This document shows, in pieces, positions 32,250 through 57,712 of a stretch of 64,000 nt of DNA. Location: positions 1-64,000 of IMG/VR virus record IMGVR_UViG_3300042453_005424, one strand, 5' to 3'. Made by a program: the position numbers and the translations under genes. The notes under the pieces were generated by a model, which did not search any database, was not told where the DNA came from, and saw only the letters and a list, made by a program, of their open reading frames with translations. The number at the start of each line of letters is the position of its first letter. Within the stretch, counting starts at the first letter, position 1. Source of the DNA: a virus.

Positions 32250-32256
32250 GAATTTT

Positions 32257-42466: not shown

Positions 42467-44326
42467 TTAGTAAATGTCTTCCTTTTCCCCAAATCCTACA
42501 CCATACGCTAACCCAGGTATAGGACTTGGTCCTTTAACATCTGAAACGGATCCTTTATTTACCATGTTTACAAATCTTTTCGCCAAATTGGTACTGTTCA
42601 GAACATGCATCCAATCTTCATGATGCTCAGGTATATCCAATAAACGCACCATCACAGGCTCAAAGTTGGGAGGATTGTCGTTCACCAACACAGCTTCAAT
42701 CCCATTATCTTTTAAATCTTTGATTACCCTGGAAGTTATTTTTGTACCTAGTGTGTAATGCAGCTCGGGTTTTTCCAGATATTTTCCGTAAGCAAAGTCT
42801 AACCTGAGATCTTTGGAATTTTCTCTAGGTTTATAATTTTTTTCAACGGCTGAATAGGAAACGATCTGGTCTGGTAGGTAATCGCCTAAACCTTCGGGAT
42901 CTGTTATTTGCACATGGTCGATAGCGGCTTTGGCTATAAGTTCAAAATTTCTACGATTGACACTTAAATTACTATCGTCGAAAGCTTTTTTCATCGCTTC
43001 CATATAATACTTTCTACCGTCTCCTATTCCTCTGTATTTAACAACTTCTCGAGGGTCTATTAAACCTGAGCTTAAAGCGTCTCCCTGCTCTACACTATCC
43101 CCGACAGAAACTGTAGGCTCTTGGTCTAACCCGATATAATGTTCGGTATTGTTGACTTTTATAAAATATCCTCCTGCCGCAGCAGGCTCGATTTTCGTAA
43201 TAAAGCCATCTTCTTGAGCTAACGGCGCTTTACCTAAAAATTGTTTTGGGACATTCGCCAATTGATTTATTAATTTAAACCCTTGCTGACTAGTTCCTAG
43301 TGTAGTAGCTGCACCTCCAGAATGTCTGGCTTTCATAGCGCTTTCAGTTAGTGGTTCTGCTACAGCTGTTCCTGCGACCAACCCAACATAACTATCTAAG
43401 GCGGCCATTCCTTTTTCGCGCACCCCAACACACATTTGGCAAAGTCCGCCCGCATGATGTTTTTTGTTAGCTTGACACGTCATCGGAGAACGTATGGTTA
43501 TACTTTTAATGTTTTTATTCGCGAGGTTATTTAACATTTTCAATGTAACCTCATTATTTCTATTATACTCGTCAACAGGTTTTGCTAAAAAAGAGCCCAC
43601 CGATTCTTTATCTTTCACACTAACGGATATTCCATTCATGGTGTCGCAATCATGCTCCACAACTTGAAGAGGCATGAGAGCGCGTGCGAATTGCTTTGAA
43701 CCATACCCGCCTTGGGCTACGGAAATTTTTTTCAAAACTTCTCCAGATCTTGTACCGAATGATGTTGTCAGATATTCAGGTAGAGTTAATCCCTCTGCAT
43801 AAGAACTTTTTATCGGTAAATCCATTTTAGGTTTACCGTCAGCATCCACAACAACACCTTGTGTAGCTATTGTTCCTCGATACTGCGCGGGAGATCCTCT
43901 TGAACCGGCAATAATAATTTTAGCTAAAGATTTATTCGAACTAAGCCCTTTTGACAAAATATCTTTTTCGATATTAGTCATCATGTCATTGTATTTATCG
44001 AATATCTTTTTATTTTTTACAGATTCTGAGTCATCACTTTTTTCTATTTTTGCTTTGAATGCGTCGAAATCCTCCCAAAGCTTATCCTTATCTATAGGAG
44101 ATACTAAATCTTTTAATGTGAGTGATGTTCCTTCTCGTGTGGCAATCTCGAAACCTAACCTTGTTAAATCCGATGTAATTTTACTGTATTCGGTCGGAGC
44201 TTTAGCAGCTAGTGCGCTAAAAAATTTAGAAAGCCCTTTTTTGTCTAAAACTTCATCGTCTATCAAATCATGAAACTGCGAAGGAGTAAAAAACTTAAGC
44301 AAAACTTTACCTACTGTGGTTACCAT
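42467..44326 (-). CDS. rpoC: Phage multi-subunit RNA polymerase, beta' C-terminal subunit
   Basis: TTVGKVLL, AGSRGS, EGLTLPEY...GTRSG (bridge helix), RSPMTC...LCQMC (Zn site) and AEPLTESAMKARHSGG (trigger loop) parallel bacterial RpoC motifs. Confidence 0.92.
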   Translation of the reverse strand: MVTTVGKVLLKFFTPSQFHDLIDDEVLDKKGLSKFFSALAAKAPTEYSKITSDLTRLGFEIATREGTSLTLKDLVSPIDKDKLWEDFDAFKAKIEKSDDSESVKNKKIFDKYNDMMTNIEKDILSKGLSSNKSLAKIIIAGSRGSPAQYRGTIATQGVVVDADGKPKMDLPIKSSYAEGLTLPEYLTTSFGTRSGEVLKKISVAQGGYGSKQFARALMPLQVVEHDCDTMNGISVSVKDKESVGSFLAKPVDEYNRNNEVTLKMLNNLANKNIKSITIRSPMTCQANKKHHAGGLCQMCVGVREKGMAALDSYVGLVAGTAVAEPLTESAMKARHSGGAATTLGTSQQGFKLINQLANVPKQFLGKAPLAQEDGFITKIEPAAAGGYFIKVNNTEHYIGLDQEPTVSVGDSVEQGDALSSGLIDPREVVKYRGIGDGRKYYMEAMKKAFDDSNLSVNRRNFELIAKAAIDHVQITDPEGLGDYLPDQIVSYSAVEKNYKPRENSKDLRLDFAYGKYLEKPELHYTLGTKITSRVIKDLKDNGIEAVLVNDNPPNFEPVMVRLLDIPEHHEDWMHVLNSTNLAKRFVNMVNKGSVSDVKGPSPIPGLAYGVGFGEKEDIY

Positions 44327-44328
44327 TG

Positions 44329-44760
44329 TTAAACAAACCTTTCGTCCGCCCCCAAAAAGCGGGCGCGAAGTGCTTCATAAAATGTAACCCCTGGAACCAA
44401 CACTCTTGCAACTTTTTGCTGCGGAATAAAATTATTAGAAATAACATTATTAGTCTTAGCTGTAGAAGAATCTTTTGGCTTTCCCACAGTGTTTTTCTCT
44501 TCGTCTAACATATTTTGCACGGATAATTCTTGAAATGCATCATCCATTAGCTGCCCTTCAAAATTATCCGCAGTTTGCTGCTTCGGTGTGGCTGTGGTTA
44601 CATCCGGTTCTGCTAATTCGTAGTTATCTCCATTATTTACCGTGAAAGGATCCCTGTGATCTTCGGCCAACTTTTCCTTTATATAACAAGCGTAGTCGTA
44701 ATTTGGATCTTGCTCAACTACACTATCTAAAAAAACGGATAATTTAGTCAAATCGAACAT
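44329..44760 (-). CDS. Acidic hypothetical protein with K-x-[A/S] sites
   Basis: TKLS, EKLA and QKVA sites; lies between the RNAP genes. Confidence 0.55.
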   Translation of the reverse strand: MFDLTKLSVFLDSVVEQDPNYDYACYIKEKLAEDHRDPFTVNNGDNYELAEPDVTTATPKQQTADNFEGQLMDDAFQELSVQNMLDEEKNTVGKPKDSSTAKTNNVISNNFIPQQKVARVLVPGVTFYEALRARFLGADERFV

Positions 44761-44778
44761 ATTTTTAAATTAATGAAA

Positions 44779-45648
44779 TTAACCTACCGCATTCATAGCC
44801 TGCGGGTATATTCCTCCTGCGGACCCCATCAAGGCTTCTTGTTGCTGTGAGTTTTGCTGCTGACTCTGCTGTTTTTCAAGTTCAGCCTTTTGTTTAACAG
44901 CTTCCATTTTTTGGTTATGTTGGTCTGCCAGTTGTTTAACTTTCAGTAATGAAGCTGTGGCAGACCCTTTCCCTATCAAATCCAGTAATTCTCGTACCGA
45001 TAAATTAACGCGTACATTATCCAGCTCATTCTTTGCTTCTACAGCAGAAGCTTCGGCAGAAGAAGCGTCATCCATGGCTGCTGGGGTATTTTGGCTGGTT
45101 CCGAAAAGCCCTGCAGCGTCTTCGTAGGATGCTTGCGCTTCCATAGGCGCTGCTTGCCCGACAGCTCCGCCATTCATCTGAGGAGCCAATTGTTGTAAAA
45201 TAGCCGCCAGCTGTTGTTCTCTTTGCTCAGGAGGTAACGCTTGAAGTTGAGTCAATAGGGGAGTGATTTGCTGCTGCAGCTCAGGGGGAATTTGCTGTAA
45301 AGCTGTTGTGACCTCGTCCCATAAACTTTGTTGAGGAGCAGCTTGTTGAGGAGCAGCTTGTTGAGGAGCAGCTTGTTGAGGAGCAGCTTGTTGAGGAGCA
45401 GCTTGTTGAGGAGCAGCTTGTTGAGGAGCAGCTTGTTGAGGAGCAGCTTGTTGAGGAGCAGCTTGTTGCTGTTCTTGTAGCTGCTGAGCAACTTGAGGGT
45501 TAGGTATGAAAGCAACTTTTTCGCTGCTGTCTGCGGTAGCTGTGTCTGTAGATGAAAATAGCGCCGTTAATGTTGTCTTGGCGGAGTTTTCTGCGGCTTC
45601 TTTAACTATTAAGTTGTTATATTGGTTTATCAAATCTACGATTTTCAT
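44779..45648 (-). CDS. Gln/Ala/Pro-rich putative head-internal protein
   Basis: VKEA and EKVA sites, (QQAAP)x9 and a C-terminal coiled coil. Confidence 0.6.
   Translation of the reverse strand: MKIVDLINQYNNLIVKEAAENSAKTTLTALFSSTDTATADSSEKVAFIPNPQVAQQLQEQQQAAPQQAAPQQAAPQQAAPQQAAPQQAAPQQAAPQQAAPQQAAPQQSLWDEVTTALQQIPPELQQQITPLLTQLQALPPEQREQQLAAILQQLAPQMNGGAVGQAAPMEAQASYEDAAGLFGTSQNTPAAMDDASSAEASAVEAKNELDNVRVNLSVRELLDLIGKGSATASLLKVKQLADQHNQKMEAVKQKAELEKQQSQQQNSQQQEALMGSAGGIYPQAMNAVG
45328..45468. repeat. Perfect 15-bp tandem repeat, 9 units plus 6 nt (encodes QQAAP)
   Basis: TTGTTGAGGAGCAGC repeated without mismatch. Confidence 0.95.
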
Positions 45649-45845
45649 AAGGCATTTTCTAATTCTATAATTTTAAATATTTTGTTTTGGAGCTCCGTTT
45701 TTATTTTACTTAATTTTCCTTGTTCTCGTGTATAGCTAAGGTTATGCTTACCTTTGTCTATAAGTACTAATTCCTGTAGATATTTTTGCAACTCCTCATA
45801 TTTATCAACTTCAGATAATTGAAGCCATTCAGTTTCGTCAAGCAT
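45645..45845 (-). CDS. Hypothetical protein
   Basis: 66 aa; overlaps the start of the next gene. Confidence 0.5.
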   Translation of the reverse strand: MLDETEWLQLSEVDKYEELQKYLQELVLIDKGKHNLSYTREQGKLSKIKTELQNKIFKIIELENAL

Positions 45846-45885
45846 AACTTAAAAGAATAGAAAGATAAAGATTAATCTATCTGAT

Positions 45886-48876
45886 TCAAACTTCAACGCG
45901 GTCGCCAACATCTAATTTACCGGCTAAAAAATCTCTTACAACTTCTTGCGCTGAGCTATATTTAATAGGTTTATTTTTTTTATCTTCAAAACTTGCAGCG
46001 AATAAACCTGTAGCGGCCTCGTTCGAAGGAGTGAATATCGGGCTGAATGTTCTGTGGTAGATTAAATTTTTCTCAGGCAATAGCTTTTCTTTGATTTCAT
46101 CTTTAGCTTCTTCTGTCGCCGGAACTTGCACATTCAACTGATCTCCATCACAATCAGCGCCGAAACCTTTAAACACCAAAGGATTTAATTTAACTGAAAA
46201 ATCTTTAGGATCAATATTTGTCTTTAGATAGAAACCTTGAAAATTATATTTAGATAATTGCGGATCTCGAGTAACAATTCCTGGGCGGTCCTCCATCTCT
46301 AGCTGGAGTGCATTAAGCGCCAACGGATGTTTTGTATCTAAGTATTCTCTAGCTTTAGTTGCAGGTATTCCTTGTTTAACCAATCTTCGAATTATAAAAG
46401 GAGCATATATACTCCAAGCAACATTTTGAGGAATGCTCGCTTGATTCAGATCTAACTTCGAATCAGGCAATAACACAGCTCTTCCTACCAAATCAATTGG
46501 TTTGTTAACAACTTTTGCCTGAAACATGGATTCTTTGGCTGACCCGCCGTGAACGCCTAACGCAGTAGCTAGTAAACCTTTATACCCTTTCTCTTTACTT
46601 TTTTGAGATATTGGGTCACCTAAACCATATATAGCTTGAGCACCTTCGTAAATTTTCTGTTTTGCCGCTCTAATGTGTTCAGGAGAAATATCCTCTATTT
46701 TTTCAGCATCTTTCAAAGATTTATTGACAAGCATCAAATCTTTATATAGCTCATTAATATCTGCCGAAAGAACTTGATCTCCCTGTATAATAATAGGGCG
46801 ATACTGTGCAGGAATAATTGGGATTTTAGATAACAACATATCACTAGGCTTGAGCCCGTGTGATTTAAGCATAGTTAAAAAGCTTAAACTTTTGACTGCC
46901 TCGTCTCTTCCGGATTTACGTTTGGTAGCAATAAATTGTTTAAGCTCATCAATTTTATTCTCTACATCTATAGCTTCTAATTTCTTTTCAAGCTCACCAC
47001 TAGCGATAGCCGCTGTATAATTCGCCTTGGTCATTTTTAACATTTTACGTAAATGTTCTTCAGCCATAGGATTAGGTATTTTATGACTCAACTCAATGTG
47101 ATTGAAATTATCTCCGTACAACCCAACATATGTAGGGTCAAAAAGGCCGTGCTCCTCATGCTGCAATTCATCTTTTTTTAACTTGTACGTGAGAGGATTT
47201 TTAATTTCCCCTGATGATAATGAAACAATATCTTTATCGGTTTGAGGAAAAATATGAAATTTTGAACCTTCCTGCTGAACATTAATTCCTGCTCCACGAA
47301 GATGCCCAAGAAACTTATTAAATATAAATGGTACTTTTGGAGGGGGTGGAGGATACCCTAATTTGAGGGCAGTCCAATAATCATCGTTTTTAGTAGAGCG
47401 CACCGTAGCGATATCCCTAAGCACTGCTTTCGCGTCATTCGATAAAGCAACCGTCGTAGCCAAGTTACCTATTCGTTTAGCTTTTTCTGTTGTTCCGGCC
47501 TTTGAAGGCTGCATATTCACATCATATGTAGTTGCAGCAGATCTAGCAGAAATTTTGTCCTCAGCTATATGGTGTAACCTGTTAAAATAAAGAGGTCCTG
47601 TTAGCACTTCGACCTGTTTGCCTGAAATTGGATCATAAAGCTTTTCAGTGTCTTTAATTCCTGCTTTGTCCAACGCGTCTATTACTTTTTGCACCGCAGA
47701 ACCTTCAGTAAATCCGGTCATATTGAGAGCTTTGCCTTTTTTCTGTGCTAATTTACCTAGCCCGATTGTATTCACCAACCCAGGAGCAACGCGAGAAGTG
47801 ATGCTCATGGAATTAAGGATAACATCCACAGGTTTGCCGTCTTCGTCTTGTGGCATTTGCGTATCAGCAGCGATGTGTACCACTCCTTTAGCTCCGAACG
47901 GCATATTCAATTTATCCCCAAACCCCATAGGGCGCTTTGTTTTAACAGTTACAGTTATAAGTTTACCTGTGTTAACTGAGTCAACCACTGTTCCTTCGTG
48001 CTCATATTCCCATGTTGTAGAAATATCATTAAAAGCATTTCTAATCACTTTAGATAACTTTCCAAGTTGTATATCCAATGATTTAAGTGTTTTAGGCTGG
48101 AAAGCCAGGATCACGGGATCTCCAGGTCGCAAAACTGTTCCTTTTTTTACTACTCCCTGAGAATCTATGGTATCTAATTGATCGTTATAGAACTTGTTAG
48201 GAAACAATGAAATATGCTGATTTTTATCTGTGGAAACTCCTCTAGCCACCTCTAAACGAATAGGGATGAGTTGCTCTCCTTCGAGTTTTTTTGCTGCAGA
48301 TTCAGATATAACCAAAGCATCCTCAAAATTAAGAGAGCGATAAGGCATAACCGCGGTTTTCAAATTCATACCTAGGGCTAAGTTGCCTTTATCATCTGAA
48401 TAATTCGAGGTAGCCAATAATTGCCCTTTTTCTACCTTGTCTCCTATTGAAACCGTAGGTTTGTGGTCTATATAACTTTCTCTTCCGACGATATAATTTG
48501 AATATCTGTCGTGCGTATGCTCTTTACCTGAAGAGTCTTTGATAACAATGGTATCATCATTAATTTTTGCAACTTTACCTGCAACTGACGATCTGATGCT
48601 TACTAAATTTCCAAAAAGCTGGTTAAAACTCTGTTTTCCTCCTTTAGGAGCTGACTGAACTAACGGAGCTTCTCGATTAGTTAACGTCATAGCTTGCAAC
48701 GAAGACTTATCCCCGATCAAAACGCGAGCCCCAGAAACAGAGCTGATTCCTGGAATTAAATTGGTTACAGGACTAAAAAACTCGGAAGGATCTGGTATAG
48801 TATATTTGGCTTTTTCAGATGAGGAAACTTTTTTTAATTTCCCTGCCACCAGCATATATTTATAATTTTTACCCAT
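45886..48876 (-). CDS. rpoBC: Phage multi-subunit RNA polymerase, fused beta C-terminal / beta' N-terminal catalytic subunit
   Basis: Beta motifs: GNLALGMN...NFEDALVIS, GDK...GAKGVV, MP.DEDGKPVDVILN...SR, LHHIAEDKISARS. Then beta' motifs: SSGEIKNP, HIEL, IPIIPAQYRP, GRAV and catalytic GADCDGDQ. Confidence 0.95.
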   Translation of the reverse strand: MGKNYKYMLVAGKLKKVSSSEKAKYTIPDPSEFFSPVTNLIPGISSVSGARVLIGDKSSLQAMTLTNREAPLVQSAPKGGKQSFNQLFGNLVSIRSSVAGKVAKINDDTIVIKDSSGKEHTHDRYSNYIVGRESYIDHKPTVSIGDKVEKGQLLATSNYSDDKGNLALGMNLKTAVMPYRSLNFEDALVISESAAKKLEGEQLIPIRLEVARGVSTDKNQHISLFPNKFYNDQLDTIDSQGVVKKGTVLRPGDPVILAFQPKTLKSLDIQLGKLSKVIRNAFNDISTTWEYEHEGTVVDSVNTGKLITVTVKTKRPMGFGDKLNMPFGAKGVVHIAADTQMPQDEDGKPVDVILNSMSITSRVAPGLVNTIGLGKLAQKKGKALNMTGFTEGSAVQKVIDALDKAGIKDTEKLYDPISGKQVEVLTGPLYFNRLHHIAEDKISARSAATTYDVNMQPSKAGTTEKAKRIGNLATTVALSNDAKAVLRDIATVRSTKNDDYWTALKLGYPPPPPKVPFIFNKFLGHLRGAGINVQQEGSKFHIFPQTDKDIVSLSSGEIKNPLTYKLKKDELQHEEHGLFDPTYVGLYGDNFNHIELSHKIPNPMAEEHLRKMLKMTKANYTAAIASGELEKKLEAIDVENKIDELKQFIATKRKSGRDEAVKSLSFLTMLKSHGLKPSDMLLSKIPIIPAQYRPIIIQGDQVLSADINELYKDLMLVNKSLKDAEKIEDISPEHIRAAKQKIYEGAQAIYGLGDPISQKSKEKGYKGLLATALGVHGGSAKESMFQAKVVNKPIDLVGRAVLLPDSKLDLNQASIPQNVAWSIYAPFIIRRLVKQGIPATKAREYLDTKHPLALNALQLEMEDRPGIVTRDPQLSKYNFQGFYLKTNIDPKDFSVKLNPLVFKGFGADCDGDQLNVQVPATEEAKDEIKEKLLPEKNLIYHRTFSPIFTPSNEAATGLFAASFEDKKNKPIKYSSAQEVVRDFLAGKLDVGDRVEV

Positions 48877-48884
48877 TTAAACTA

Positions 48885-48913
48885 ATATTACCTTACCAAA
48901 TATGAAAGATCAA
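48885..48913 (-). promoter_or_regulatory. Sigma70-type promoter for the RNAP fusion gene
   Basis: TTGATC-17 nt-TAATAT. Confidence 0.55.
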
Positions 48914-48930
48914 CCAACGGAATTAATTTT

Positions 48931-49269: not shown

Positions 49270-49383
49270 AAATAAACATAATTTACTAGATTTACCTGAA
49301 TGGTTCAAGCCACAAACAAGAAAACTGGTATACAGTCTATGGTAGATCTGCTTTCCCTCATATCAACAGATGCTTTCTCCCCC

Positions 49384-50827: not shown

Positions 50828-52810
50828 ATGCACATTGATTCAACACACGCTCACTCGCCGGAAAACGCCGAACTGAACAACACTATGGAAAAAGCGTCTC
50901 AAGAAAAAAAGGCGGTTACCTTAATAGAAGCCGCCATCGCGCCATTCTTAACCGGAGCTGTCGGAGCAGGAATTGGGGCTTTAGCCAACAAGGAGGATCG
51001 ATCCGCTGGGGCACGGCGAGGAGCGTTAGTCGGAGCCTCGCTGCCTCTAGGAGCACTCGGCGGTATAGTAGCTTCTGGAAATACCGGCGCTTTGGCAGGA
51101 CCGTTAGCCGGGGCAGCTTTGGCTGGAGGAATAACACATCATCTCACAGGAAAGAATAAAACGGATGAGCGCCCGAAAGCTTCAGAGCTATCCGAAGAAG
51201 AAATCCTAGCTCAGCTCAACAGCACCGATCTGAGCAATTCGGAATTCGAACGAGGATTCAAAGAAGCTTGCGTAGAACTAGGTGCGGACCGAGAGTTCGC
51301 CGAAGGCTTTATCGCTCAAACAACAAAAGAAGCTGAAATCGCTGAAGGGCAGTATTTAAACCATGTTCAAAACGAGCTTTCGAAGCTCGCTGAAGAATTC
51401 GGTGAAAACGCCAGCTTTTCCATAAGCGAAATCAACGAGTTTACTAAATCCATGAGCTTGTTTAAAGAGGCTGCGGAGAAAGAAGCAAGAATGTTCTGGA
51501 AAGGCCTCGAAGAAGAACTTCAAAAGCAAGGATACGACAGAGATTTTGTGGATGGAATGAAGTATGAGCTTACCTCCACGGAGTTAAATTCGATTATAGA
51601 GAATAACTTTGAAAAAAGTGCTAGCATGGGTTCTTTTTTAAGAATGGCTCTGAGTCCAACACTTTGGAAACGTCCAGGAGCGCAGCTTAAAGGAATAGGC
51701 GCCGGAATCACAAGTGGTGCGAAAGGAGTTCAGAAGTTCGTGAGTGATTTGGCAAAAGCTCCGGGCGGAGCCGTAACCAACCAAGCAGGCGAGGCTGTTA
51801 TGCACAGTTCCGCGCCAAAACATATTCCGGGCTCGAGAACCAAAGCTTACGCAGATGCTTACGAAGCAGCTCTCGGAGCAAAGCCGCTTGCCCCGAAAGG
51901 CCAAGGAATAATAGACTCAGCAAGAGACTCGGCTATTTCACAAGGAAGCACTGCACTTAGAAGAACAGGTGACGATGCTTTTCAGCAGGAAATGTATAAC
52001 CTGAGCCGTGAAGCCAGAAATAGCGGCCCTGGGGGCGCTGCGGCCCGGGATGCTCTCGATAGGTTAGGAAAAGGAGACTTCGGAGGGATTGCCGGGCGAA
52101 TGGGTATGGACCCGACAAAAATGAACCAGTTCGCAGGAATGAGCGCAGATGATATACGTAGAGCTAACATTCCGTCCGAGGATGTGCTCGGAGCGGCTCA
52201 GCGATACGGGGCCGATGCGACTGCGTCCGGGTTTAACATGAGTGGAATACCTATGCCTAAAATGAACCCGAACGTGTTTCACGGAGGAGCCCCTAATCGT
52301 TGGTTTAGATTTTCTCCAGGAAAAGCTATGGGTTACGGGCTTACCGGAGCGCTAGGCGGGTCTATGCTCGGACCTCTAGGAACTGTGGCAGGAGGGCTGG
52401 GCGGAGCAGCTCTCGGAGGCTTGGGTGTGGGGGGAGCAGCCCTCGGAACCGGAGCCGCGGCAGCAGCAGGAACCTACGGGGCTGGAAAAGTCCTAGGGCT
52501 CTGGGGGAAAGACAAAGCTACCGATTTGAGCGGCGCCCCAACGGACCGGAATAGAGCTATTCCGATGCTTAAAAACAATTGGACCGGAGGCGTGGGTGGT
52601 CTCATAGTTGCGAGTTTGCTCGCGAATCAATTAGGGCTTCAAGGACCTATGGCATGGATTGTTCCTCTCCTGGGCGGAGTGCTTGGGTACAACTATTTTC
52701 CGCAGCTTATGAACAAATGGAAAGACCCTTACGGCTACGGAGCAAACGCAGTCTCGGGCGGAGCAGCTTTCCAGAACGCGGCCTCGCCGATAACTCCTAG
52801 GCAACCATGA
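50828..52810 (+). CDS. Large putative head-packaged glycine-zipper membrane protein
   Basis: Four FxxG[FLM] helices, EKKA/TKEA/EKSA sites, and several Gly-zippers including GYGLTGALGGSMLGPLGTVAGGLGGAALGGLGVGGAALG. Start moved downstream of the promoter (50828, or 50885). Confidence 0.65.
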   Translation: MHIDSTHAHSPENAELNNTMEKASQEKKAVTLIEAAIAPFLTGAVGAGIGALANKEDRSAGARRGALVGASLPLGALGGIVASGNTGALAGPLAGAALAGGITHHLTGKNKTDERPKASELSEEEILAQLNSTDLSNSEFERGFKEACVELGADREFAEGFIAQTTKEAEIAEGQYLNHVQNELSKLAEEFGENASFSISEINEFTKSMSLFKEAAEKEARMFWKGLEEELQKQGYDRDFVDGMKYELTSTELNSIIENNFEKSASMGSFLRMALSPTLWKRPGAQLKGIGAGITSGAKGVQKFVSDLAKAPGGAVTNQAGEAVMHSSAPKHIPGSRTKAYADAYEAALGAKPLAPKGQGIIDSARDSAISQGSTALRRTGDDAFQQEMYNLSREARNSGPGGAAARDALDRLGKGDFGGIAGRMGMDPTKMNQFAGMSADDIRRANIPSEDVLGAAQRYGADATASGFNMSGIPMPKMNPNVFHGGAPNRWFRFSPGKAMGYGLTGALGGSMLGPLGTVAGGLGGAALGGLGVGGAALGTGAAAAAGTYGAGKVLGLWGKDKATDLSGAPTDRNRAIPMLKNNWTGGVGGLIVASLLANQLGLQGPMAWIVPLLGGVLGYNYFPQLMNKWKDPYGYGANAVSGGAAFQNAASPITPRQP

Positions 52811-53388
52811 TGTATCTCCACCTAGATTCTTTTATTGCCGGGGTTGTGCAAGGACTTAAAAAGGAAGCCGGTGTGGACATGGGTGCTATGCCTATAAACG
52901 AAAATATCCTCCCGAATATCTCTTCTCAAGCCAAATGGAGATATGTAAAAACAAAAGATGGTCTTCGGCTTACGGATGGAAATCACGTGTATACTTTCGG
53001 AATTCCTGAAGAATACCCTCAAGAGAGCTCTAGAGTTCTTCGAATGAACGACGAAAATTTATTGAATTTCGAGGCCGACGCTCTCTCGAAAGGAACCGCA
53101 CAAATACATCGTGCCTCTCCTGACAATATATATCTTACTTTGGCCGACGGAGAAAAAAATCCTACCTTCGCACTTCAGCACGAAACAGAGAAGCAATGGC
53201 GGTATACTCCATCTAAAAAGTTTGTGGAAAAATTGCGAGCCTCTGGTGCTCCAGTCAGTGCGCCCTCTTCTCTCAGTGAAACCGAGAAAAGCCATGCCGG
53301 GGAAAATTTAACGCTAATCAGCCCAGAAAGCCTTTTGGATGGAGGAAAGGACGAGCTCAGAAATTCTTTTGAACCTTCGAGAGGCTAA
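52807..53388 (+). CDS. Putative head-packaged protein
   Basis: N-terminal SFIAGVVQGLKKEA motif. Confidence 0.55.
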   Translation: MMYLHLDSFIAGVVQGLKKEAGVDMGAMPINENILPNISSQAKWRYVKTKDGLRLTDGNHVYTFGIPEEYPQESSRVLRMNDENLLNFEADALSKGTAQIHRASPDNIYLTLADGEKNPTFALQHETEKQWRYTPSKKFVEKLRASGAPVSAPSSLSETEKSHAGENLTLISPESLLDGGKDELRNSFEPSRG

Positions 53389-53394
53389 AGCGCC

Positions 53395-53787
53395 ATGAAC
53401 AAAACAGCTTTTCCAGAGTTAAATACTTCTCCTTTTAGTATCGGAGGAAGATCTCCATACGGGCGCCCTCTTATGGGACCTGACATGATTAGCGATCCGG
53501 TTAAAGTTATGCAGCTCGTAAGTCAAGACAAAGGGATATCCCGCGGGCAAAAACAATCAGTTATTACTATGCTTAATTCTCCGGAATTCGTGGACCATAT
53601 ACTGGTAGGTGCTGCCGGAGCAGCGTTAGGGAATGCTATAGCCAAATATTCAAATATACCTCAACCGGCTAGAACTTTGTTGAGCTTGGCGGGCTTCGGA
53701 ATAGGTAATATAATATACAACACATTACAAAACAGAGAATTTATTTCTTATGACCAAGAAACAGCCAAAGCAAAAATAAAATTATAA
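53395..53787 (+). CDS. Putative head-packaged two-TM protein
   Basis: Begins MNKTA; ILVGAAGAALG and LLSLAGFGIG segments. Confidence 0.55.
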   Translation: MNKTAFPELNTSPFSIGGRSPYGRPLMGPDMISDPVKVMQLVSQDKGISRGQKQSVITMLNSPEFVDHILVGAAGAALGNAIAKYSNIPQPARTLLSLAGFGIGNIIYNTLQNREFISYDQETAKAKIKL

Positions 53788-53791
53788 AATT

Positions 53792-54148
53792 ATGGAATTA
53801 ACAGAATATTCATCAGCAATTAAAAACGAGCTAGCTTTGGAGTTAGCTAAAAATGGCCACACGCTCGAAGATTTCGAAAACGGTCTAGCTTCCTTGAACA
53901 CAGGCGAAGGTGTTTTAAAAGTTGCTACAATCGAGGCCGGACTACTTCCGGGAGTTTTGAGCGGTGTTCAACAAGCTCCGGGACTCATATTCAAAACATT
54001 TGCCGCTGGTGGAGCTTTAGGAGGTTTAGCTGCGGACGAAATGGACAGCTCTGTAGACGAATTGAATAAATCGCTTGACCGAGAGCGTGAAAAGATTAAA
54101 TTAGTCAAAAGAATCACTGAAAACTTAAAGAGAGAGCATGGGTTATAA
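53792..54148 (+). CDS. Putative head-packaged small membrane protein
   Basis: LKVA site, FAAGGALGGLAA and a C-terminal coiled coil. Confidence 0.55.
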   Translation: MELTEYSSAIKNELALELAKNGHTLEDFENGLASLNTGEGVLKVATIEAGLLPGVLSGVQQAPGLIFKTFAAGGALGGLAADEMDSSVDELNKSLDREREKIKLVKRITENLKREHGL

Positions 54149-54533
54149 TCAAGACTACACAGCAAAACAGTCCGAAGCCACCGAGCACTTTGATTTCGGG
54201 AGTTCGTCAGGCGACCCGCTTAATTCCGTAAGCAGAAAACGAAACATCCGAAACGAAGTGACTAACAAGGGAGGATTCGACCCTGAGGTAATCATCGATG
54301 CGTTCGAAAAATCTAGAGGAATTCGCTCCCGGCAAAAGAACGAGTTAGAAAATTATAAATTTAAAAACATTATATTAGACCCTGAGAAACAAAAGGATCA
54401 AGATATGCTTAATGAGTTGATGAACAATAAGAAATATCTTATTACTTTATGGAAAGACACGTGGACGCAGCAGGGAAGTTTTCGAGTATTTATTATATAC
54501 GGCGCGAAAGAAGACGAATCAGCTAAAACGTAA
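54138..54533 (+). CDS. Hypothetical protein
   Basis: 131-aa ORF overlapping the upstream stop. Confidence 0.55.
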   Translation: MGYNQDYTAKQSEATEHFDFGSSSGDPLNSVSRKRNIRNEVTNKGGFDPEVIIDAFEKSRGIRSRQKNELENYKFKNIILDPEKQKDQDMLNELMNNKKYLITLWKDTWTQQGSFRVFIIYGAKEDESAKT

Positions 54534-54627
54534 CAAAAATCTCGGGCGAAGAATCATTTCGAGCCGGACTGCGTAGAATTTGATTTACTTATAAACACCT
54601 ATAATTGTATACTGTAGATGAATACTT

Positions 54628-55809
54628 ATGAACGAACAGATCCGGAATTTATTAAAAAAATCGCGTTGTTGGGAAGGTTATAAGCCTGTTCCAGGTAAAA
54701 AGCCTTATACCAAAGATTCTTGTGCGCCGGTGGAAAAGAAGGACCCGGAGAAAGCAGGTAGCACCAACATTCCACTCTCACCTGAAGAGAGCTATCTGGC
54801 TTCGCAGTTAATAGGAAAAAGTCTTTTTAGCGCTATCCAATTAGCTAAAGAAAAAGAAAGACAACAGAACATTTTAAGCCAAGAGCTGATAGGTGCAGAC
54901 GGGGGAGATATATTACGTATTCCTATACCTAAGAAACTTCTGCCTAATCCTACAGGGCAGAAACAAGCCTCTCATACTCCTTCGCCAGAAGCTATGTCAG
55001 CTATGCAGGATTTAATAGCTTATAATAATTATGTTCGTAAACACGGTAATCCTGATGCTTATGATGAAAAAATAAGACGAGGATTAGATCCGTTACTTAA
55101 TAGGGTTTCGATGTCGCAGGGTAACCTGCACCGTTTAGGTGATGCCGGGATTATGTCTATTTTTCCTTTTGGAAAAGCACATAAACAAAGAAAACAATAC
55201 GACCAAGACATAGACTGGATCAATAGCGAGTTGAAGAAATCCGCAAACGACGATTATTCTGATGCGCTTCACACGAACCACGAACCTGGTGTTTTAGCCC
55301 GAGCGCTGAAGTTAAATACACACCCTGTTAAAAAAATAATGGGAATGCAGAGCGGATTTCGCGACGCTAAAAAAGAATTTTATTTCCAAGAAAAAGCGCA
55401 AATTGCCCAAGAGCTGATGAATGCTCAAAAAGAATACATTGAGCTTCTGGAAAGAATCAAAACCGGTGAAGAAAAGCTCGGTAAAGCCTCGAGTACTCCA
55501 TGTGTTGACGCTTTTTGCAACGGAATAGCCCATAGCGCGCTTTTTGGAGAGGAGGCTGCGGCAAAAACCGCTGGTGCTGAAAACGTGGATATCTCCGACG
55601 GATCAATAAACCGTCTGCTGAAAGATACTTTTAGCGCAGTGAAAAAACCTTTTCAACCTGCGGTAGATACTGCGGCAAGCGGGTTACTTGCCACTTCGGC
55701 TGGAACAGCATATTTAACATATTTATTGCGTAAAAGAATGCGTGAAGAACCTGAAAAATATATGCAGGAAAAATTGCCTACCAGAGTGGAGCTGCAGCCT
55801 TATGAGTAA
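54628..55809 (+). CDS. Putative head-packaged protein with an N-terminal CWEGY module and a C-terminal TM segment
   Basis: KKSRCWEGYKPVPGKKPYTKDSC; QKQA, KKSA and AKTA sites; AFCNGI helix; GLLATSAGTAYLTYLL. Confidence 0.6.
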   Translation: MNEQIRNLLKKSRCWEGYKPVPGKKPYTKDSCAPVEKKDPEKAGSTNIPLSPEESYLASQLIGKSLFSAIQLAKEKERQQNILSQELIGADGGDILRIPIPKKLLPNPTGQKQASHTPSPEAMSAMQDLIAYNNYVRKHGNPDAYDEKIRRGLDPLLNRVSMSQGNLHRLGDAGIMSIFPFGKAHKQRKQYDQDIDWINSELKKSANDDYSDALHTNHEPGVLARALKLNTHPVKKIMGMQSGFRDAKKEFYFQEKAQIAQELMNAQKEYIELLERIKTGEEKLGKASSTPCVDAFCNGIAHSALFGEEAAAKTAGAENVDISDGSINRLLKDTFSAVKKPFQPAVDTAASGLLATSAGTAYLTYLLRKRMREEPEKYMQEKLPTRVELQPYE

Positions 55810-56161
55810 CCTCAAAGCAGCTTTTAACGCGGGGTTTTTAAAACGTGCCGAGGCTCGAGGTTTTCGAGAAGATCAGGCAGCCATGCTTCTAGGCAAAACA
55901 GCAGGAAACGGTGCATTGATAGGACGATTAATGAGTACAGCAAAAAACCTCCACAATGTTTGGCCAGCCATGTCTAAAACAAGCCCTGCGGCATACGATA
56001 AAATGTATAATACGTATAATACACTCAAAGGGCTCATGAGCCAGGGAATAGCTCCCAAAACAAACCCTAGCAGAAGAACAATACAGGCTGATTATACTAG
56101 GCTGTTGAAACACCGAGTGAATAATTTGAATCCCCAGGCGAGCAAACTTCAATCAAAGTAA
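55802..56161 (+). CDS. Putative head-packaged basic protein
   Basis: From ATG 55802: MSNLKAAFNAGFLKRAEARGF...GKTA. Confidence 0.6.
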   Translation: MSNLKAAFNAGFLKRAEARGFREDQAAMLLGKTAGNGALIGRLMSTAKNLHNVWPAMSKTSPAAYDKMYNTYNTLKGLMSQGIAPKTNPSRRTIQADYTRLLKHRVNNLNPQASKLQSK

Positions 56162-56168
56162 CTGCACA

Positions 56169-56792
56169 ATGAATTTAGACTGGACTGCATGCAATAAAGG
56201 AATAGCTGATGAACTAGAGAAACACGCCCGCTGGGGAGCTATTGGTAACGCAGCTAAGCAAGTTTTTAATTTAGGCAGAAAAGCTTTTTTACCTGCAGCC
56301 GCCGCTGGTGGTGCTTTTACGTTAGGAAAAGGTTTGTATAACAAATATAGGGATATCACAGGAACTATAGACGGTGTAGGAAATGCTATAAACAAGCTGG
56401 CTCCGGTAGGCCTTATGGCTATGCTGGCATCAGGTATGCGCAAAAGCGCACCCCAACTTCCCACACCTGCGCCTAGAGGAGCCTTTGATGCTAAGTCTTT
56501 ATTGGGTGTTAACCCTGCCGGGGTGTCTACACTAACCTCACCTAAAGTAGGTCCTATGAATATAAAAATTGCGAATCCTCTTTATGACCCTTTGCTTTGG
56601 GCTGCGAGAAATCGCGTAGCTAACCATGTTTTAAACGAAGTAACAAAGACAAGTCCGTCAGGGGCTGGTGAAAGAGCAAAACTAACCGAAGAAAATCCTA
56701 AAAAAATTGAATTAACCTCTAAATATCCTGAGCTTGCAAAGTTATTAGAAGACGAAGAAAACAAAGCTTATTTAAACAAATTGCTAGCATAA
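56169..56792 (+). CDS. Putative head-packaged membrane protein
   Basis: ACNKGIADELEKHA, then FLPAAAAGGAFTLG and VGLMAMLASG. Confidence 0.6.
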   Translation: MNLDWTACNKGIADELEKHARWGAIGNAAKQVFNLGRKAFLPAAAAGGAFTLGKGLYNKYRDITGTIDGVGNAINKLAPVGLMAMLASGMRKSAPQLPTPAPRGAFDAKSLLGVNPAGVSTLTSPKVGPMNIKIANPLYDPLLWAARNRVANHVLNEVTKTSPSGAGERAKLTEENPKKIELTSKYPELAKLLEDEENKAYLNKLLA

Positions 56793-56802
56793 TAATAATT
56801 GC

Positions 56803-56831
56803 TTGCACTGATGCTCCGGAAAGATTAGTTT
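56803..56831 (+). promoter_or_regulatory. Possible sigma70-type promoter
   Basis: TTGCAC-17 nt-TAGTTT. Confidence 0.4.
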
Positions 56832-56841
56832 AATTTTAATT

Positions 56842-57069
56842 ATGCCGGCAGAAAATAAGCAAATATATATCCCAGAGCTGTTCGTCAAAGGAACATACAT
56901 AGAAGAAGTGGGTACAGCACAAGATAAAGTGGTTTATCCAGGAGCGGAATTCAACATAGCGTTAACTATGAAAGATTTTGAAAATTCGGAAGATTACCAC
57001 ACAGTATGGATAGCGATAACAAAAGCGATTAAATCAAAACTAAACAATGGAAACCTCACCTGCCCCTAA
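56842..57069 (+). CDS. Hypothetical protein
   Basis: 75-aa ORF upstream of the beta-N gene. Confidence 0.5.
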   Translation: MPAENKQIYIPELFVKGTYIEEVGTAQDKVVYPGAEFNIALTMKDFENSEDYHTVWIAITKAIKSKLNNGNLTCP

Positions 57070-57712
57070 AAATACGCGAGCACTTTTTGACCCAGAAAAT
57101 TTGCGTAATATGTTGTTTGAAACTGCTGTAAGCAGTTTTGATAAAAAGTTAAATGCTATCGAAACGCCAGACTTTAAATTAGTCGCTAAAAATTTAACAG
57201 TTGAGGTCCCGCAGATAACTATATCAGCGCAAAAAAAAGCTATTTTAGAAAAAAAGGATCTAACCGTACCACTCAAAGGAACCGTAGATCTTATACATAA
57301 GCCGACAGGAAAAGTGGTAGAAACCAAGAAAACAACGATTGCGCAAATTCCGTATGTAACAAATCATAATACTGTAATATATAATGGTTCAGAGTATGAG
57401 CCTGTTAACCAACAACGGCTTCTCCCAGGTATATACTCCAGAATAAGGCAAGACGGTATAGCTGAAGCCCACATCAATCCTGAAAGTAGAACAGGTATGG
57501 CTGGCAGGATATTGTTTTTGCCGGATAAACAACTATTCGTTTTTATGGTGAGAAATTCTCAAATAAAGCTCTACGGAATTTTACACGACCTAGGAATACC
57601 TGACGCTATGATAAAAAAAGCTTGGGGAGAAAAAATTTACTCAGCTAATAGAATATTTTATACAGGAGATGAAATTGACAAGCTCTACGGTGTGCTTATC
57701 GGAGATGAATGA
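57047..57712 (+). CDS. rpoB: Phage RNA polymerase beta N-terminal fragment
   Basis: LTVPLKGTVDL..K.TG...IPYVTNHNTVIYNGSEY...QQRLLPGIY parallels RpoB IPLMT..GTF.INGTERV..SQL.RSPGV; ILHDLG parallels ILRAL. Confidence 0.85.
   Translation: METSPAPKNTRALFDPENLRNMLFETAVSSFDKKLNAIETPDFKLVAKNLTVEVPQITISAQKKAILEKKDLTVPLKGTVDLIHKPTGKVVETKKTTIAQIPYVTNHNTVIYNGSEYEPVNQQRLLPGIYSRIRQDGIAEAHINPESRTGMAGRILFLPDKQLFVFMVRNSQIKLYGILHDLGIPDAMIKKAWGEKIYSANRIFYTGDEIDKLYGVLIGDE

What the first reader, a model, noticed from the sequence alone, without database searches (positions are those of the whole stretch)
42467..57712. Multi-subunit RNAP with unusual architecture: beta-N, missing beta middle, beta-C fused to beta'-N, and beta'-C
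Seen: three separate genes. The 996-aa protein joins the C-terminal part of beta directly to beta', so both catalytic double-psi barrels are on one chain; beta' is then split after the catalytic loop. The active-site motif is GADCDGDQ rather than NADFDGD. The three Asp, the beta FED, GDK and GAKG lysines and the trigger-loop His are all kept, so the enzyme looks active. The beta' N-terminal Cys4 zinc ribbon is cleanly deleted (GLFDPTYVGLYGDNFNHIEL). The beta middle (fork loop and rifampicin pocket, roughly E. coli residues 230-640) and any alpha subunit are not in the window. Established: phiKZ/AR9 RNAPs are split without a beta-beta' fusion, while Helicobacter and Wolbachia fuse full-length RpoBC. 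Inference: an independently derived, bacterial-like phage RNAP, probably virion-packaged because it is encoded among head genes.
Basis: partly seen in the sequence, partly recalled or inferred. Interest (0 to 1): 0.85.

Follow-up and report, generated by a model that had tools for sequence, protein, structure and literature searches.

The report
Four-gene phage RNA polymerase, beta/beta-prime fused
An uncultured large phage encodes its own bacterial-type RNA polymerase in four scattered genes, one joining the end of beta to the start of beta-prime. It is a further-split variant of a very large, almost unstudied phage polymerase family whose cultured member (Salmonella phage Arash) carries the enzyme in its virions.

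Summary
The 996-aa protein (45886-48876, -) joins the beta C-terminal half head-to-tail to the beta-prime N-terminal half. The 619-aa protein (42467-44326, -) is the rest of beta-prime, and the 221-aa protein (57047-57712, +) is the beta N-terminus.

The "missing" beta middle is not missing. It is a 230-aa gene at 64252-64944 (-) of the same 74-kb contig, 252 bases past the window end.

All four genes recur in five related viral contigs. They evolve under strong purifying selection and form the only RNAP set in a complete 198-kb relative.

The fusion is not unique. Salmonella phage Arash (gp206, 1525 aa, plus gp216) and Vibrio phage D69 share the beta/beta-prime junction and beta-prime split. 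At least 150 metagenomic protein clusters share the junction, nearly all with the same C-terminal end; beta is usually unsplit.

Arash virion proteomics found gp206, gp216 and a sigma-like Gp10. The window encodes the Gp10 orthologue at 10426-11067.

Best reading: an alpha-less RNAP with its own sigma-70-type factor, probably delivered in the virion.

The three-way beta split is a derived variant. I found no paper describing this architecture. Earlier follow-ups in this scan reached the same reading on other genomes.

The parts
57047..57712 (+). beta N-terminal piece (221 aa). It is on the opposite strand to the other three RNAP genes. NOTE: the fourth RNAP gene, the beta middle piece (230 aa; fork domain and rifampicin-pocket region), lies just OUTSIDE the window at contig 64252-64944 (-). 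It cannot be listed as a part of its own; contig coordinates equal window coordinates.
   Evidence: beta-N: aligns to Arash gp206 residues 36-222, E 2e-17. A profile of 5 orthologues hits bacterial beta N-termini in the PDB, E 2e-7. Orthologues at 60-74% identity occur in 5 of 5 relatives. dN 0.20-0.44 with dS saturated.

beta-middle: ORF found. Pfam Rpb2_3 26 bits, cut-off 21. Aligns to E. coli beta 491-575 and to Arash gp206 231-469, E 2e-26. Present in 5 of 5 relatives at 72-81% identity.
45886..48876 (-). beta C-terminal half fused head-to-tail to the beta-prime N-terminal half (996 aa). It carries both double-psi beta-barrels.
   Evidence: Pfam Rpb2_6 + Rpb1_1 + Rpb1_2. 32% identity to Arash gp206 residues 482-1517. 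PDB best hits are bacterial beta for aa ~18-536 and beta-prime for aa ~605-995. Foldseek on the AF2 model gives bacterial beta and beta-prime chains.
47239..47295 (-). The fusion junction. The beta C-terminus (GAGINVQQEG, aa 528-537) runs directly into the beta-prime N-terminus (SKFHIFPQT, aa 538-546) with essentially no linker.
   Evidence: Coordinates. The bacterial beta alignments end at aa ~534-549 and the beta-prime alignments begin by aa ~605. The junction is shared by Arash gp206. Mapping the first beta-prime residues to the E. coli N-terminus is my reading, from memory of that sequence.
47089..47148 (-). Site where the beta-prime N-terminal Cys4 zinc ribbon would be. It is deleted (GLFDPTYVGLYGDNFNHIEL, aa 577-596).
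   Evidence: The 996-aa chain has a single Cys, C909. G577, L578, F579, D580, N592 and H593 are invariant in 30 homologues. Arash also lacks Cys here.
46138..46161 (-). Catalytic Mg-binding loop GADCDGDQ (aa 906-913). The canonical form is NADFDGDQ.
   Evidence: D908, D910, G911, D912 and Q913 are invariant in 30 homologues, while position 909 varies. Arash reads AADYDGDA.
47884..48330 (-). beta active-site elements: NFED (aa 183-186), GFGDK (318-322) and FGAKG (327-331).
   Evidence: N183, F184, E185, D186, D321, K322, G328, K330 and G331 are invariant.
42467..44326 (-). beta-prime C-terminal piece (619 aa): bridge helix, second zinc site and trigger loop.
   Evidence: Pfam Rpb1_5, E 3e-15. 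Aligns to E. coli beta-prime 572-945 and Thermus 925-1391. 26% identity, E 1e-61 to Arash gp216. Cys 227/284/296/299 and the trigger-loop His at AMKARHSGG. Present in 5 of 5 relatives at 69-81% identity.
10426..11067 (-). Sigma-70-family factor (213 aa), the likely specificity subunit of this RNAP. It lies outside the finding's coordinates.
   Evidence: Pfam Sigma70_r3 35 bits, cut-off 25.3. A profile of 4 orthologues matches regions 2-3 of SigB, SigA and RpoD in the PDB, E 7e-13. It is the orthologue of Arash Gp10 (E 6.5e-14), which was detected in virions.
40204..42393 (-). 729-aa virion-module neighbour immediately downstream of beta-prime-C.
   Evidence: Matches Arash gp218, a "structural protein" detected by MS.
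27444..33693 (-). Head module that places the RNAP genes in context: major capsid protein (27444-28400) and prohead protease-like protein (32257-33693).
   Evidence: tblastn to Arash gp226 (major capsid protein) at E 3e-28 and to gp222 at E 4e-24, in the same order as in Arash. PHROG head maturation protease, E 6e-9.

Best explanation
This is the single, functional, phage-encoded bacterial-type RNA polymerase of a roughly 200-kb uncultured phage. It is built from four polypeptides:
- beta-N (221 aa)
- beta-middle (230 aa)
- a beta-C::beta-prime-N fusion (996 aa) that carries both catalytic barrels
- beta-prime-C (619 aa), with the bridge helix and trigger loop

Shown:
- The four pieces map end to end, without overlap, onto Salmonella phage Arash gp206 plus gp216.
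- They are conserved as four genes in every relative examined.
- They keep every catalytic element that was checked.
- They are under strong purifying selection.

Shown: the beta/beta-prime junction is the hallmark of a very large phage family. The C-terminal end after the catalytic loop is constant in nearly all members compared. In that family beta is usually unsplit, so the three-way beta split here is a derived, clade-specific state.

Inferred:
- No alpha subunit is encoded. The covalent beta/beta-prime link may replace the alpha-dimer platform that normally brings the two large subunits together.
- Promoter recognition is provided by a co-conserved phage sigma-70-family factor, because the flap-tip region and the clamp-helix region lie within the stretches that align to bacterial beta and beta-prime.
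- The enzyme and its sigma are packed into the capsid and injected with the DNA to start transcription independently of the host. With only one RNAP set in the genome, it probably continues through the cycle.
- The rifampicin pocket differs at positions where resistance mutations map, so the enzyme is predicted to be rifampicin-insensitive.

The confidence of 0.8 is for identity, architecture and function. The virion-delivery and sigma steps alone rate about 0.6.
For: Domain content.

Collinear mapping on Arash gp206/gp216.

Conservation of all four genes in 5 of 5 related viral contigs (60-81% identity), with the same order and strand pattern.

Only one beta and one beta-prime set in a 100%-complete 198-kb relative, in a 93%-complete one and in Arash.

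Selection: dS is saturated while dN is 0.06-0.44, and omega is 0.02-0.18 where computable.

Catalytic residues invariant across 30 homologues down to 53% identity.

Family size and architectures:
- 8,786 representatives at E<=1e-3, and 1,451 at E<=1e-30; these counts include cellular RNAP subunits.
- The best 150 all contain the fused region.
- The states range from one chain (~2,050 aa: P0229, P0238, P0268) through two chains (the commonest) to four.

The split clade is monophyletic (support 100) and nested among full-beta forms.

The fused family is one clade (SH-aLRT 100) apart from 15 bacteria and 3 other phage beta-primes.

No alpha.

Sigma factor.

Virion evidence in Arash: gp206 3,516 spectra (the most of any protein), gp216 1,210 and Gp10 467 (PMC10585845).

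Head-module synteny with Arash.

Rifampicin pocket: a gapless alignment to the beta of chain 6wmp_C, which I renumbered from memory of the E. coli sequence, gives F514N, D516E, H526L, R529K and S531T.
Against: - No biochemical or transcriptomic data exist for any member of the family.
- Packaging is extrapolated from one phage at 26-32% identity. The Arash authors themselves note that abundant infection-phase enzymes may have been carried over into the virion preparation, which also contained ribonucleotide reductases and RNA ligases.
- Use of the sigma by this core rather than by host RNAP is untested. Many phages without an RNAP also encode sigma factors (PMC7824862).
- No sigma-70-type promoter enrichment was seen in 42000-58500: 38 sites against 33 +/- 5.6 expected.
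- The idea that the fusion replaces alpha is inference only.
- The AF2 model of the fusion is only moderate (pLDDT 67.7, pTM 0.36), so it says nothing about inter-domain geometry.
- The contig is only 38% complete by CheckV. A second RNAP set in this particular genome is excluded only by analogy with its complete relatives.
Confidence: 0.8

Rival explanations
1. The enzyme is functional but is not a virion component. It is made after infection and transcribes middle and late genes only, while early genes are read by host RNAP, possibly redirected by the phage sigma factor.
For: The Arash authors caution that highly expressed enzymes may contaminate virion preparations, and 88 proteins including RNRs and RNA ligases were called "structural". 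Phage sigma factors commonly act on host core enzyme (PMC7824862).
Against: gp206 gave the highest spectral count of all Arash virion proteins, above the major capsid protein. The RNAP genes lie inside the head-morphogenesis module, in the same order in Arash and in this phage. There is only one RNAP set per genome, so there is no separate virion paralogue as in phiKZ.
Confidence: 0.17
2. The pieces are the decaying remnants of a once-intact fused gene (pseudogenisation), or an assembly or frameshift artefact.
For: Relatives with a single unsplit beta::beta-prime-N gene are the majority, so fragmentation could in principle be decay.
Against: The pieces are separated by 6-8 kb, and one is on the opposite strand. 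The same four ORFs occur with the same boundaries in five independent contigs from different samples. omega is far below 1. The catalytic residues are invariant. The split clade holds 15 of the sequences sampled for the tree, down to 53% identity.
Confidence: 0.01
3. Origin rival: the family is not an independent ancient viral lineage. It is a fast-evolving capture of a cellular rpoBC fusion, such as exists in Helicobacter and Wolbachia, that later lost its zinc ribbon, lobe and alpha dependence.
For: The enzyme is much closer in sequence to bacterial beta and beta-prime than phiKZ or AR9 are. It uses a sigma-70-family factor. Some members are complete one-chain beta::beta-prime proteins, as in bacterial RpoBC fusions (established knowledge).
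Against: In the beta-prime-N tree the family sits on a long stem (1.12 substitutions per site) outside all 15 sampled bacteria from at least four phyla. However, no Campylobacterota or Wolbachia sequence was included, and long-branch effects are likely.
Confidence: 0.3

Closest known systems
Salmonella phage Arash gp206 (1,525 aa) + gp216 (606 aa), OQ632216.1, PMC10585845; also Vibrio phage D69 VPHD69_0261 (1,527 aa), with matching one-piece tblastn hits in D148 and D181
   Same: The beta C-terminus to beta-prime N-terminus junction is the same, and the beta-prime split ~80 residues after the DxDxD loop is the same. The N-terminal zinc ribbon is likewise lost and there is no alpha. A Gp10-type sigma factor is co-conserved. 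The genes occupy the same position in the head module. There is a single RNAP set per genome.
   Different: In Arash and D69 all of beta is in the fused chain, giving two genes. Here beta is cut into three genes scattered over 19 kb on both strands, giving four genes. Identity is only 26-32%. The active-site loop reads GADCDGDQ here against AADYDGDA in Arash. The Arash paper annotates gp206 simply as "beta" and does not describe the fusion.
phiKZ and AR9 virion and non-virion multisubunit RNAPs
   Same: These are also phage-encoded, alpha-less RNAPs whose beta and beta-prime homologues are split into several polypeptides. Beta-prime is split after its barrel, and one version is virion-packaged (PMC7824862, PMC13282480).
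   Different: They have two paralogous sets per genome, against one here. No beta/beta-prime fusion is described for them. They have no sigma-70 homologue and use gp68 or gp226 instead. They are far more divergent from cellular RNAP: Pfam Rpb1_2 gives no hit in phiKZ and 30 bits in AR9.
Cellular RpoBC fusions (Helicobacter, Wolbachia) and the cyanobacterial/plastid split of beta-prime into gamma (RpoC1) and beta-prime (RpoC2)
   Same: The fusions are end-to-end joins of beta to beta-prime with no real linker (established knowledge). The cyanobacterial split of beta-prime lies in the same inter-domain region: the 996-aa chain ends at about residue 551 of the ~625-aa gamma subunit, and beta-prime-C residue ~23 aligns with RpoC2 residue ~11.
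   Different: The cellular enzymes keep alpha2, omega, the zinc ribbon and full-length beta. The phage split point is roughly 50-70 residues upstream of the cyanobacterial one. No cellular enzyme combines the fusion with the split.
Other bacterial-like phage RNAPs (Rhizobium phage RHph_Y65 of the Kleczkowskaviridae, Vibrio phage Va2, Yersinia phage YerA41)
   Same: These phages encode beta-prime homologues detectable at ~24-26% identity, and YerA41 also splits beta-prime into N and C pieces.
   Different: Their beta-prime genes are annotated as standalone genes, and the beta half of the query did not match at the same locus. They do not group with the fused family in the beta-prime-N tree, where they have long branches of uncertain placement.

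Membership tests
Bacterial-type multisubunit (two-barrel) RNA polymerase | beta-type barrel with conserved Lys pair and flanking ED motif (Pfam Rpb2_6) | tested here: met
   Rpb2_6 at E 1.4e-48. NFED, GDK and GAKG are present and invariant.
Bacterial-type multisubunit (two-barrel) RNA polymerase | beta-prime-type barrel with DxDxD Mg-binding loop | tested here: met
   Rpb1_2 at E 3.9e-13. D908, D910 and D912 are invariant. The first residue of NADFDGD is Gly instead of Asn.
Bacterial-type multisubunit (two-barrel) RNA polymerase | Bridge helix and trigger loop (Rpb1_5) | tested here: met
   Rpb1_5 at E 3e-15. The alignment to Thermus beta-prime covers both elements, with the trigger-loop His kept.
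Bacterial-type multisubunit (two-barrel) RNA polymerase | beta fork/rifampicin-pocket domain (Rpb2_3) | tested here: met
   A separate 230-aa gene at contig 64252-64944 scores 26 bits against a cut-off of 21 and aligns to E. coli beta 491-575.
Bacterial-type multisubunit (two-barrel) RNA polymerase | alpha dimer as assembly platform | tested here: not met
   No PF01000 or PF01193 match at E<=1 in this contig, two near-complete relatives, Arash or D69. Controls were positive in 14 of 14 genomes.
Bacterial-type multisubunit (two-barrel) RNA polymerase | beta-prime N-terminal Cys4 zinc-binding domain | tested here: not met
   There is one Cys in 996 residues, and the flanking motifs are joined directly.
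Arash-type fused phage RNAP family | beta C-terminus covalently continued by the beta-prime N-terminus | tested here: met
   The region is shared by all of the best 150 representatives.
Arash-type fused phage RNAP family | beta-prime cut ~80 residues after the catalytic loop, with the remainder as a separate ~610-aa protein | tested here: met
   The C-terminal overhang is 0-5 residues in nearly all family members compared. The 619-aa protein matches gp216.
Arash-type fused phage RNAP family | Whole beta in the same chain (~450 residues ahead of the region matched here) | tested here: not met
   Here beta-N and beta-middle are separate genes. This is the clade-specific difference.
Arash-type fused phage RNAP family | Co-conserved Gp10-type sigma factor and placement in the head module | tested here: met
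Arash-type fused phage RNAP family | Presence of the subunits in virions | not testable with these tools
   Known only for Arash, by mass spectrometry.
phiKZ/AR9-type phage RNAPs | Two paralogous sets (virion and non-virion) | tested here: not met
   There is one Rpb2_6 locus and one Rpb1_2 locus per genome in the complete relatives.
phiKZ/AR9-type phage RNAPs | No sigma-70 homologue; a lineage-specific initiation subunit instead | tested here: not met
   A sigma-70-family protein is conserved in all relatives searched. The literature states that phiKZ-group phages have none.
Cellular RpoBC fusion (Helicobacter/Wolbachia type) | Full-length beta and full-length beta-prime in one chain, working with alpha and omega | tested here: not met
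   Only beta-C and beta-prime-N are joined here, and there is no alpha. Some distant family members are complete one-chain forms.

The most novel reading that the evidence does not exclude
A very large, unstudied family of phages carries a self-sufficient transcription machine of a new type. It is an alpha-less bacterial-type core in which beta and beta-prime are covalently joined, and it can be cut at permissive junctions into one to four chains. It is programmed by a true sigma-70-family factor, and both core and sigma are injected from the virion. This would be the first phage multisubunit RNAP shown to use a sigma-70 homologue. It would also be a natural experiment on how far a two-barrel RNAP can be permuted and minimised.
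Probability: 0.5. Interest if true: 0.8.

Novelty: new variant of a known kind. Interest (0 to 1): 0.62.

Why it matters
Phage multisubunit RNAPs are currently understood almost entirely from phiKZ and AR9: two enzyme sets, no sigma homologue, and extreme divergence from cellular RNAP. This family is different. It is bacterial-like, has a single set, has a sigma-70-type partner and has both catalytic barrels on one chain.

The family is large. At least 150 protein clusters at the 50% identity level contain the fused region, and there are cultured representatives in Salmonella and Vibrio that could be studied at once.

The natural series of one-, two-, probably three- and four-chain versions marks the junctions at which a bacterial-type RNAP tolerates cutting, fusing and domain insertion. 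That bears on RNAP assembly without alpha, on minimal-RNAP engineering, and on the debate over whether phage RNAPs are ancient lineages or captured cellular enzymes.

A rifampicin-insensitive, virion-delivered RNAP would also explain host-independent early transcription in a widespread group of environmental phages.

Tried and rejected
- Megablast of the locus against 50,697 phage records found no match, so only protein-level searches were informative.
- PHROGs on 20 large window proteins gave one hit, the prohead protease. The phage is mostly dark matter, and context had to come from tblastn against Arash.
- The sigma-70 promoter and intrinsic terminator scan of 42000-58500 showed no enrichment over shuffles. 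A crude intergenic survey gave too few regions for motif finding. I make no promoter claim.
- The AF2 model of the 996-aa fusion had pLDDT 67.7 and pTM 0.36. Foldseek confirms bacterial beta and beta-prime folds, but the model is too weak for inter-domain geometry.
- I tried to add phiKZ and AR9 to the phylogeny. phiKZ has no Pfam Rpb1_2 match and AR9 has no BLAST-level similarity, so they could not be aligned reliably and were left out.
- Host inference from MAG bins: four copies sit in MAGs labelled Gammaproteobacteria, Sediminibacterium, Dependentiae and Saprospiraceae. These are inconsistent, and at least two are whole-phage-sized contigs, so I treat them as mis-binning and not as host evidence.
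- The "moraphage" paper (PMC12619734) was checked as a possible description of this lineage. Those phages have no RNAP, so it is unrelated.
- Reviews of jumbo-phage RNAPs (PMC7824862, PMC13282480) and five full-text searches found no description of a beta/beta-prime fusion in phages.
- Two genome-search runs failed on a handle rule and were redone correctly.
- The first submit attempt was rejected because the beta-middle gene lies outside the window coordinates. It is now described under the beta-N part.

Full report
WHAT THE SEQUENCE IS

The window is the first 64,000 bases of a 74,454-base linear IMG/VR viral contig. CheckV rates it 38% complete, so it is a fragment of a phage of roughly 200 kb. 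GC content is about 39%. The phage is very divergent. Twenty large proteins gave a single PHROG hit, a prohead protease, and megablast finds no relative among 50,697 phage records.

CHECKING THE OBSERVATION

The 996-aa protein (45886-48876, minus strand):
- It carries Pfam Rpb2_6 (aa 133-459, E 1.4e-48), then Rpb1_1 (658-726) and Rpb1_2 (863-930).
- Against the PDB, its first ~540 residues align to the C-terminal half of bacterial beta.
- Residues ~605-995 align to bacterial beta-prime residues ~150-550.
- Beta ends at GAGINVQQEG (aa 528-537), and SKFHIFPQT follows at once, so the two are joined end to end with no real linker. Equating SKFHIFPQT with the beta-prime N-terminus is my reading, from memory of the E. 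coli sequence.

The 619-aa protein (42467-44326, minus strand):
- It carries Rpb1_5.
- It aligns to E. coli beta-prime 572-945 and to Thermus 925-1391.
- That range includes the bridge helix, the second zinc site and the trigger loop.

The 221-aa protein (57047-57712, plus strand):
- It has no Pfam hit.
- A profile of five orthologues matches the N-terminus of bacterial beta (E 2e-7).

- GADCDGDQ, NFED, GFGDK and FGAKG.
- The zinc-ribbon-less GLFDP...NHIEL junction.
- The trigger-loop His.

The 996-aa chain has just one cysteine.

THE CORRECTION

The beta middle is not missing from the genome. Reading the rest of the contig shows a 230-aa ORF at 64252-64944 on the minus strand, 252 bases past the window end.
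- It hits Pfam Rpb2_3 above the gathering threshold.
- It aligns without gaps to the beta segment that holds rifampicin clusters I and II and fork loop 2, equivalent to E. coli 491-575.

The enzyme therefore has four genes.

What is truly absent is about 120 residues of the beta lobe between the end of beta-N and the start of beta-middle. That estimate comes from the S. aureus beta alignments. The beta-prime N-terminal zinc ribbon is also absent.

No alpha subunit is encoded. No alpha-family match was found in this contig, two near-complete relatives, Arash or Vibrio D69, while all 14 control genomes were positive.

RELATIVES

A tblastn search of the 996-aa protein against phage records gave one-piece hits over 94-98% of its length in Salmonella phage Arash and in Vibrio phages D69, D148 and D181. 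Arash gp206 is 1,525 aa and D69 VPHD69_0261 is 1,527 aa.

The four pieces of this contig map collinearly, without overlap, onto Arash gp206 and gp216:

| Piece | Arash target | Score |
|---|---|---|
| beta-N | gp206 36-222 | E 2e-17 |
| beta-middle | gp206 231-469 | E 2e-26 |
| 996-aa fusion | gp206 482-1517 | 32% identity |
| 619-aa protein | gp216 | E 1e-61 |

So Arash has the same beta/beta-prime junction and the same beta-prime cut, but its beta is whole.

The Arash paper (PMC10585845) calls gp206 "beta" and gp216 "beta-prime" and does not mention the fusion. It reports gp206 as the protein with the most spectra in virion preparations (3,516). gp216 gave 1,210 spectra and the sigma-like Gp10 gave 467. 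The authors add the caveat that abundant enzymes might be carried over.

SIZE AND VARIETY OF THE FAMILY

The word-indexed search found 525 homologues. The top 120 were almost all ~995 aa with the same three Pfam domains.

The exhaustive search of 1.84 billion representatives gave 8,786 hits at E<=1e-3 and 1,451 at E<=1e-30. These totals include cellular RNAP subunits. The best 150 (E<1e-167) all contain the fused region, and most are 1,400-2,900 aa long.

Cutting each representative against the query gives these classes:
- No N-terminal extension: this clade, at 53% identity or more.
- An extension of ~160 aa, where the chain starts within beta-middle (P0143, P0254).
- An extension of ~450 aa, with the whole of beta in the chain. 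This is the commonest class.
- Longer chains with extra domains. P0138 has SET, DUF5661 and 2H-phosphoesterase domains inserted exactly between beta-N and beta-middle.
- Chains of ~2,050 aa that also contain beta-prime-C, so the whole core is one polypeptide (P0229, P0238, P0268).

The C-terminal end of the fused piece is constant to within 0-5 residues in nearly all members.

Short forms taken from metagenomic gene calls could be truncated. The four-gene state of this clade, by contrast, was verified on DNA.

Five related viral contigs of 121-198 kb, one of them 100% complete, each have all four genes. The lengths, order and strand pattern match.

In a tree of 67 family members, the 15 sequences that start at beta-C form one clade with support 100. 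That clade is nested among full-beta forms. The three-way split of beta is therefore derived and specific to this clade.

IS IT FUNCTIONAL?

- Synonymous sites are saturated between relatives while dN is 0.06-0.44. Where omega can be computed it is 0.02-0.18, for all four pieces.
- The catalytic Asp triad, the beta Lys residues, the ED motif and many structural residues are invariant over 30 homologues down to 53% identity.
- Complete relatives have only one beta and one beta-prime locus, so this is the phage's only RNAP of this type.

Decay and assembly artefact are excluded.

HOW IT PROBABLY WORKS

Shown: the core is alpha-less, with both barrels on one chain.

Inferred: the covalent link substitutes for the alpha-dimer assembly platform.

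Evidence for a sigma partner:
- A 213-aa sigma-70-family protein is encoded at 10426-11067.
- It scores 35 bits on Sigma70_r3, above the cut-off.
- A profile of its orthologues matches regions 2-3 of SigB, SigA and RpoD at E 7e-13.
- It is conserved in every relative searched.
- It is the orthologue of virion-detected Arash Gp10.

An earlier first-reader note on this genome (e1-6101661) pointed to this ORF, and I tested it here.

The flap-tip region and the clamp-helix region lie within the stretches that align to bacterial beta and beta-prime. A sigma-dependent initiation mechanism is therefore plausible but untested.

The RNAP genes lie in the head module, in the same order as in Arash:
- the sigma (Arash gp10);
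- a 601-aa structural protein (gp14);
- the major capsid protein (gp226);
- a protease-like protein (gp222);
- a 729-aa structural protein (gp218);
- beta-prime-C and then the fusion.

Together with the Arash proteomics, this supports packaging and injection as the likeliest reading, at about 0.6.

The rifampicin pocket differs at F514N, D516E, H526L, R529K and S531T. This is E. coli numbering that I assigned from memory to the alignment, whose subject is chain 6wmp_C. These are positions where resistance mutations map (established knowledge). The enzyme is therefore predicted to be rifampicin-insensitive.

RELATION TO KNOWN SYSTEMS

The enzyme is much nearer to bacterial RNAP than phiKZ or AR9 are:
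- All PDB best hits are bacterial.
- Pfam Rpb1_2 finds nothing in phiKZ and only 30 bits in AR9, against 50 bits here.

It also differs from that group in other ways:
- It has one RNAP set instead of two.
- It has a sigma-70 homologue, whereas reviews state that phiKZ-type phages have none.
- It has the fusion.

A tree of the beta-prime-N region included 18 family members, 15 bacteria and 3 other bacterial-like phage enzymes. The bacteria were six Bacteroidota, six from the phylum of one small-genome MAG, one Dependentiae MAG, Salmonella and Staphylococcus. In that tree the family is one clade (SH-aLRT 100) on a long stem, outside all sampled bacteria.

That is consistent with a single origin of the fusion. 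It does not decide between an old viral lineage and a fast-evolving capture of a cellular rpoBC fusion.

Full-text searches and two reviews gave no description of this architecture.

EARLIER NOTES OF THIS SCAN

A sequence look-up showed that first readers and follow-up agents had already met the same enzyme on other genomes, described there as freshwater phages. They reached the same reading: four genes, a beta/beta-prime fusion, and Arash as the closest known relative (e1-5781962, e1-5801829, e1-5805086). I treated these as leads.

VERDICT

This is a new, further-fragmented variant of a phage RNAP type that exists in cultured phages but has never been described or studied. It is a genuinely interesting family. 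The particular window adds the four-gene split state.

Noticed in passing
Homologues P0077 (1,296 aa, Pfam LAGLIDADG_3), P0062, P0112 and P0075; many multi-stretch representatives: Many family members have the fused RNAP gene interrupted by inserts that look intein- or homing-endonuclease-like. They show 2-4 matched stretches and reach 2,937 aa. The window's own copy has none.
   Followed up: partly
Contig 70299-70700 (+), outside the window; homologue P0138: The contig encodes a stand-alone SET-domain protein (Pfam SET, E 2.6e-9). In the distant family member P0138, a SET domain plus DUF5661 and a 2H phosphoesterase are inserted into the RNAP chain exactly at the beta-N/beta-middle junction. 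This may be a recurrent link between SET domains and this polymerase.
   Followed up: partly
46138-46161 (-): The first residue of the universal NADFDGD loop is Gly here and Ala in Arash. From memory, that Asn contacts the ribose of the incoming NTP in E. coli and contributes to discrimination against dNTPs. Its consistent absence in this family is unexplained.
   Followed up: no
44779-45648 (-): A 289-aa protein between the two large RNAP genes has about eleven tandem PQQAA repeats and Gln-rich flanks. It has no family match.
   Followed up: no
59275-62069 (+): Two adjacent proteins (671 and 257 aa) have unusual Cys patterns. There are eight repeats of a CE...CG unit, and both proteins share a CCTYSQCCWLSESS motif.
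   Followed up: no
L050-L053 (genome contigs): Copies of this phage type sit in MAGs labelled Gammaproteobacteria, Sediminibacterium, Dependentiae and Saprospiraceae. Two are whole-phage-sized contigs of 211 and 226 kb. This looks like mis-binning of phage genomes into bacterial bins, and it gives no consistent host signal.
   Followed up: partly
INPHARED records OR844998.1, OR849902.1, OR846602.1, OR848788.1 and others: Several unannotated records named as Staphylococcus, Enterococcus, Listeria, Salmonella or Escherichia "phage" matched over the length expected of bacterial rpoB-rpoC. They appear to be host-DNA contamination in the phage collection.
   Followed up: partly
Contig 65152-73146, outside the window: The right end of the contig encodes a dCMP/cytidine deaminase, an Amidase_2 lysin, a weak ribonucleotide-reductase-like protein, a VWA protein, a family-25 glycosyltransferase and a PhoH-like ATPase.
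   Followed up: partly
   Followed up: partly
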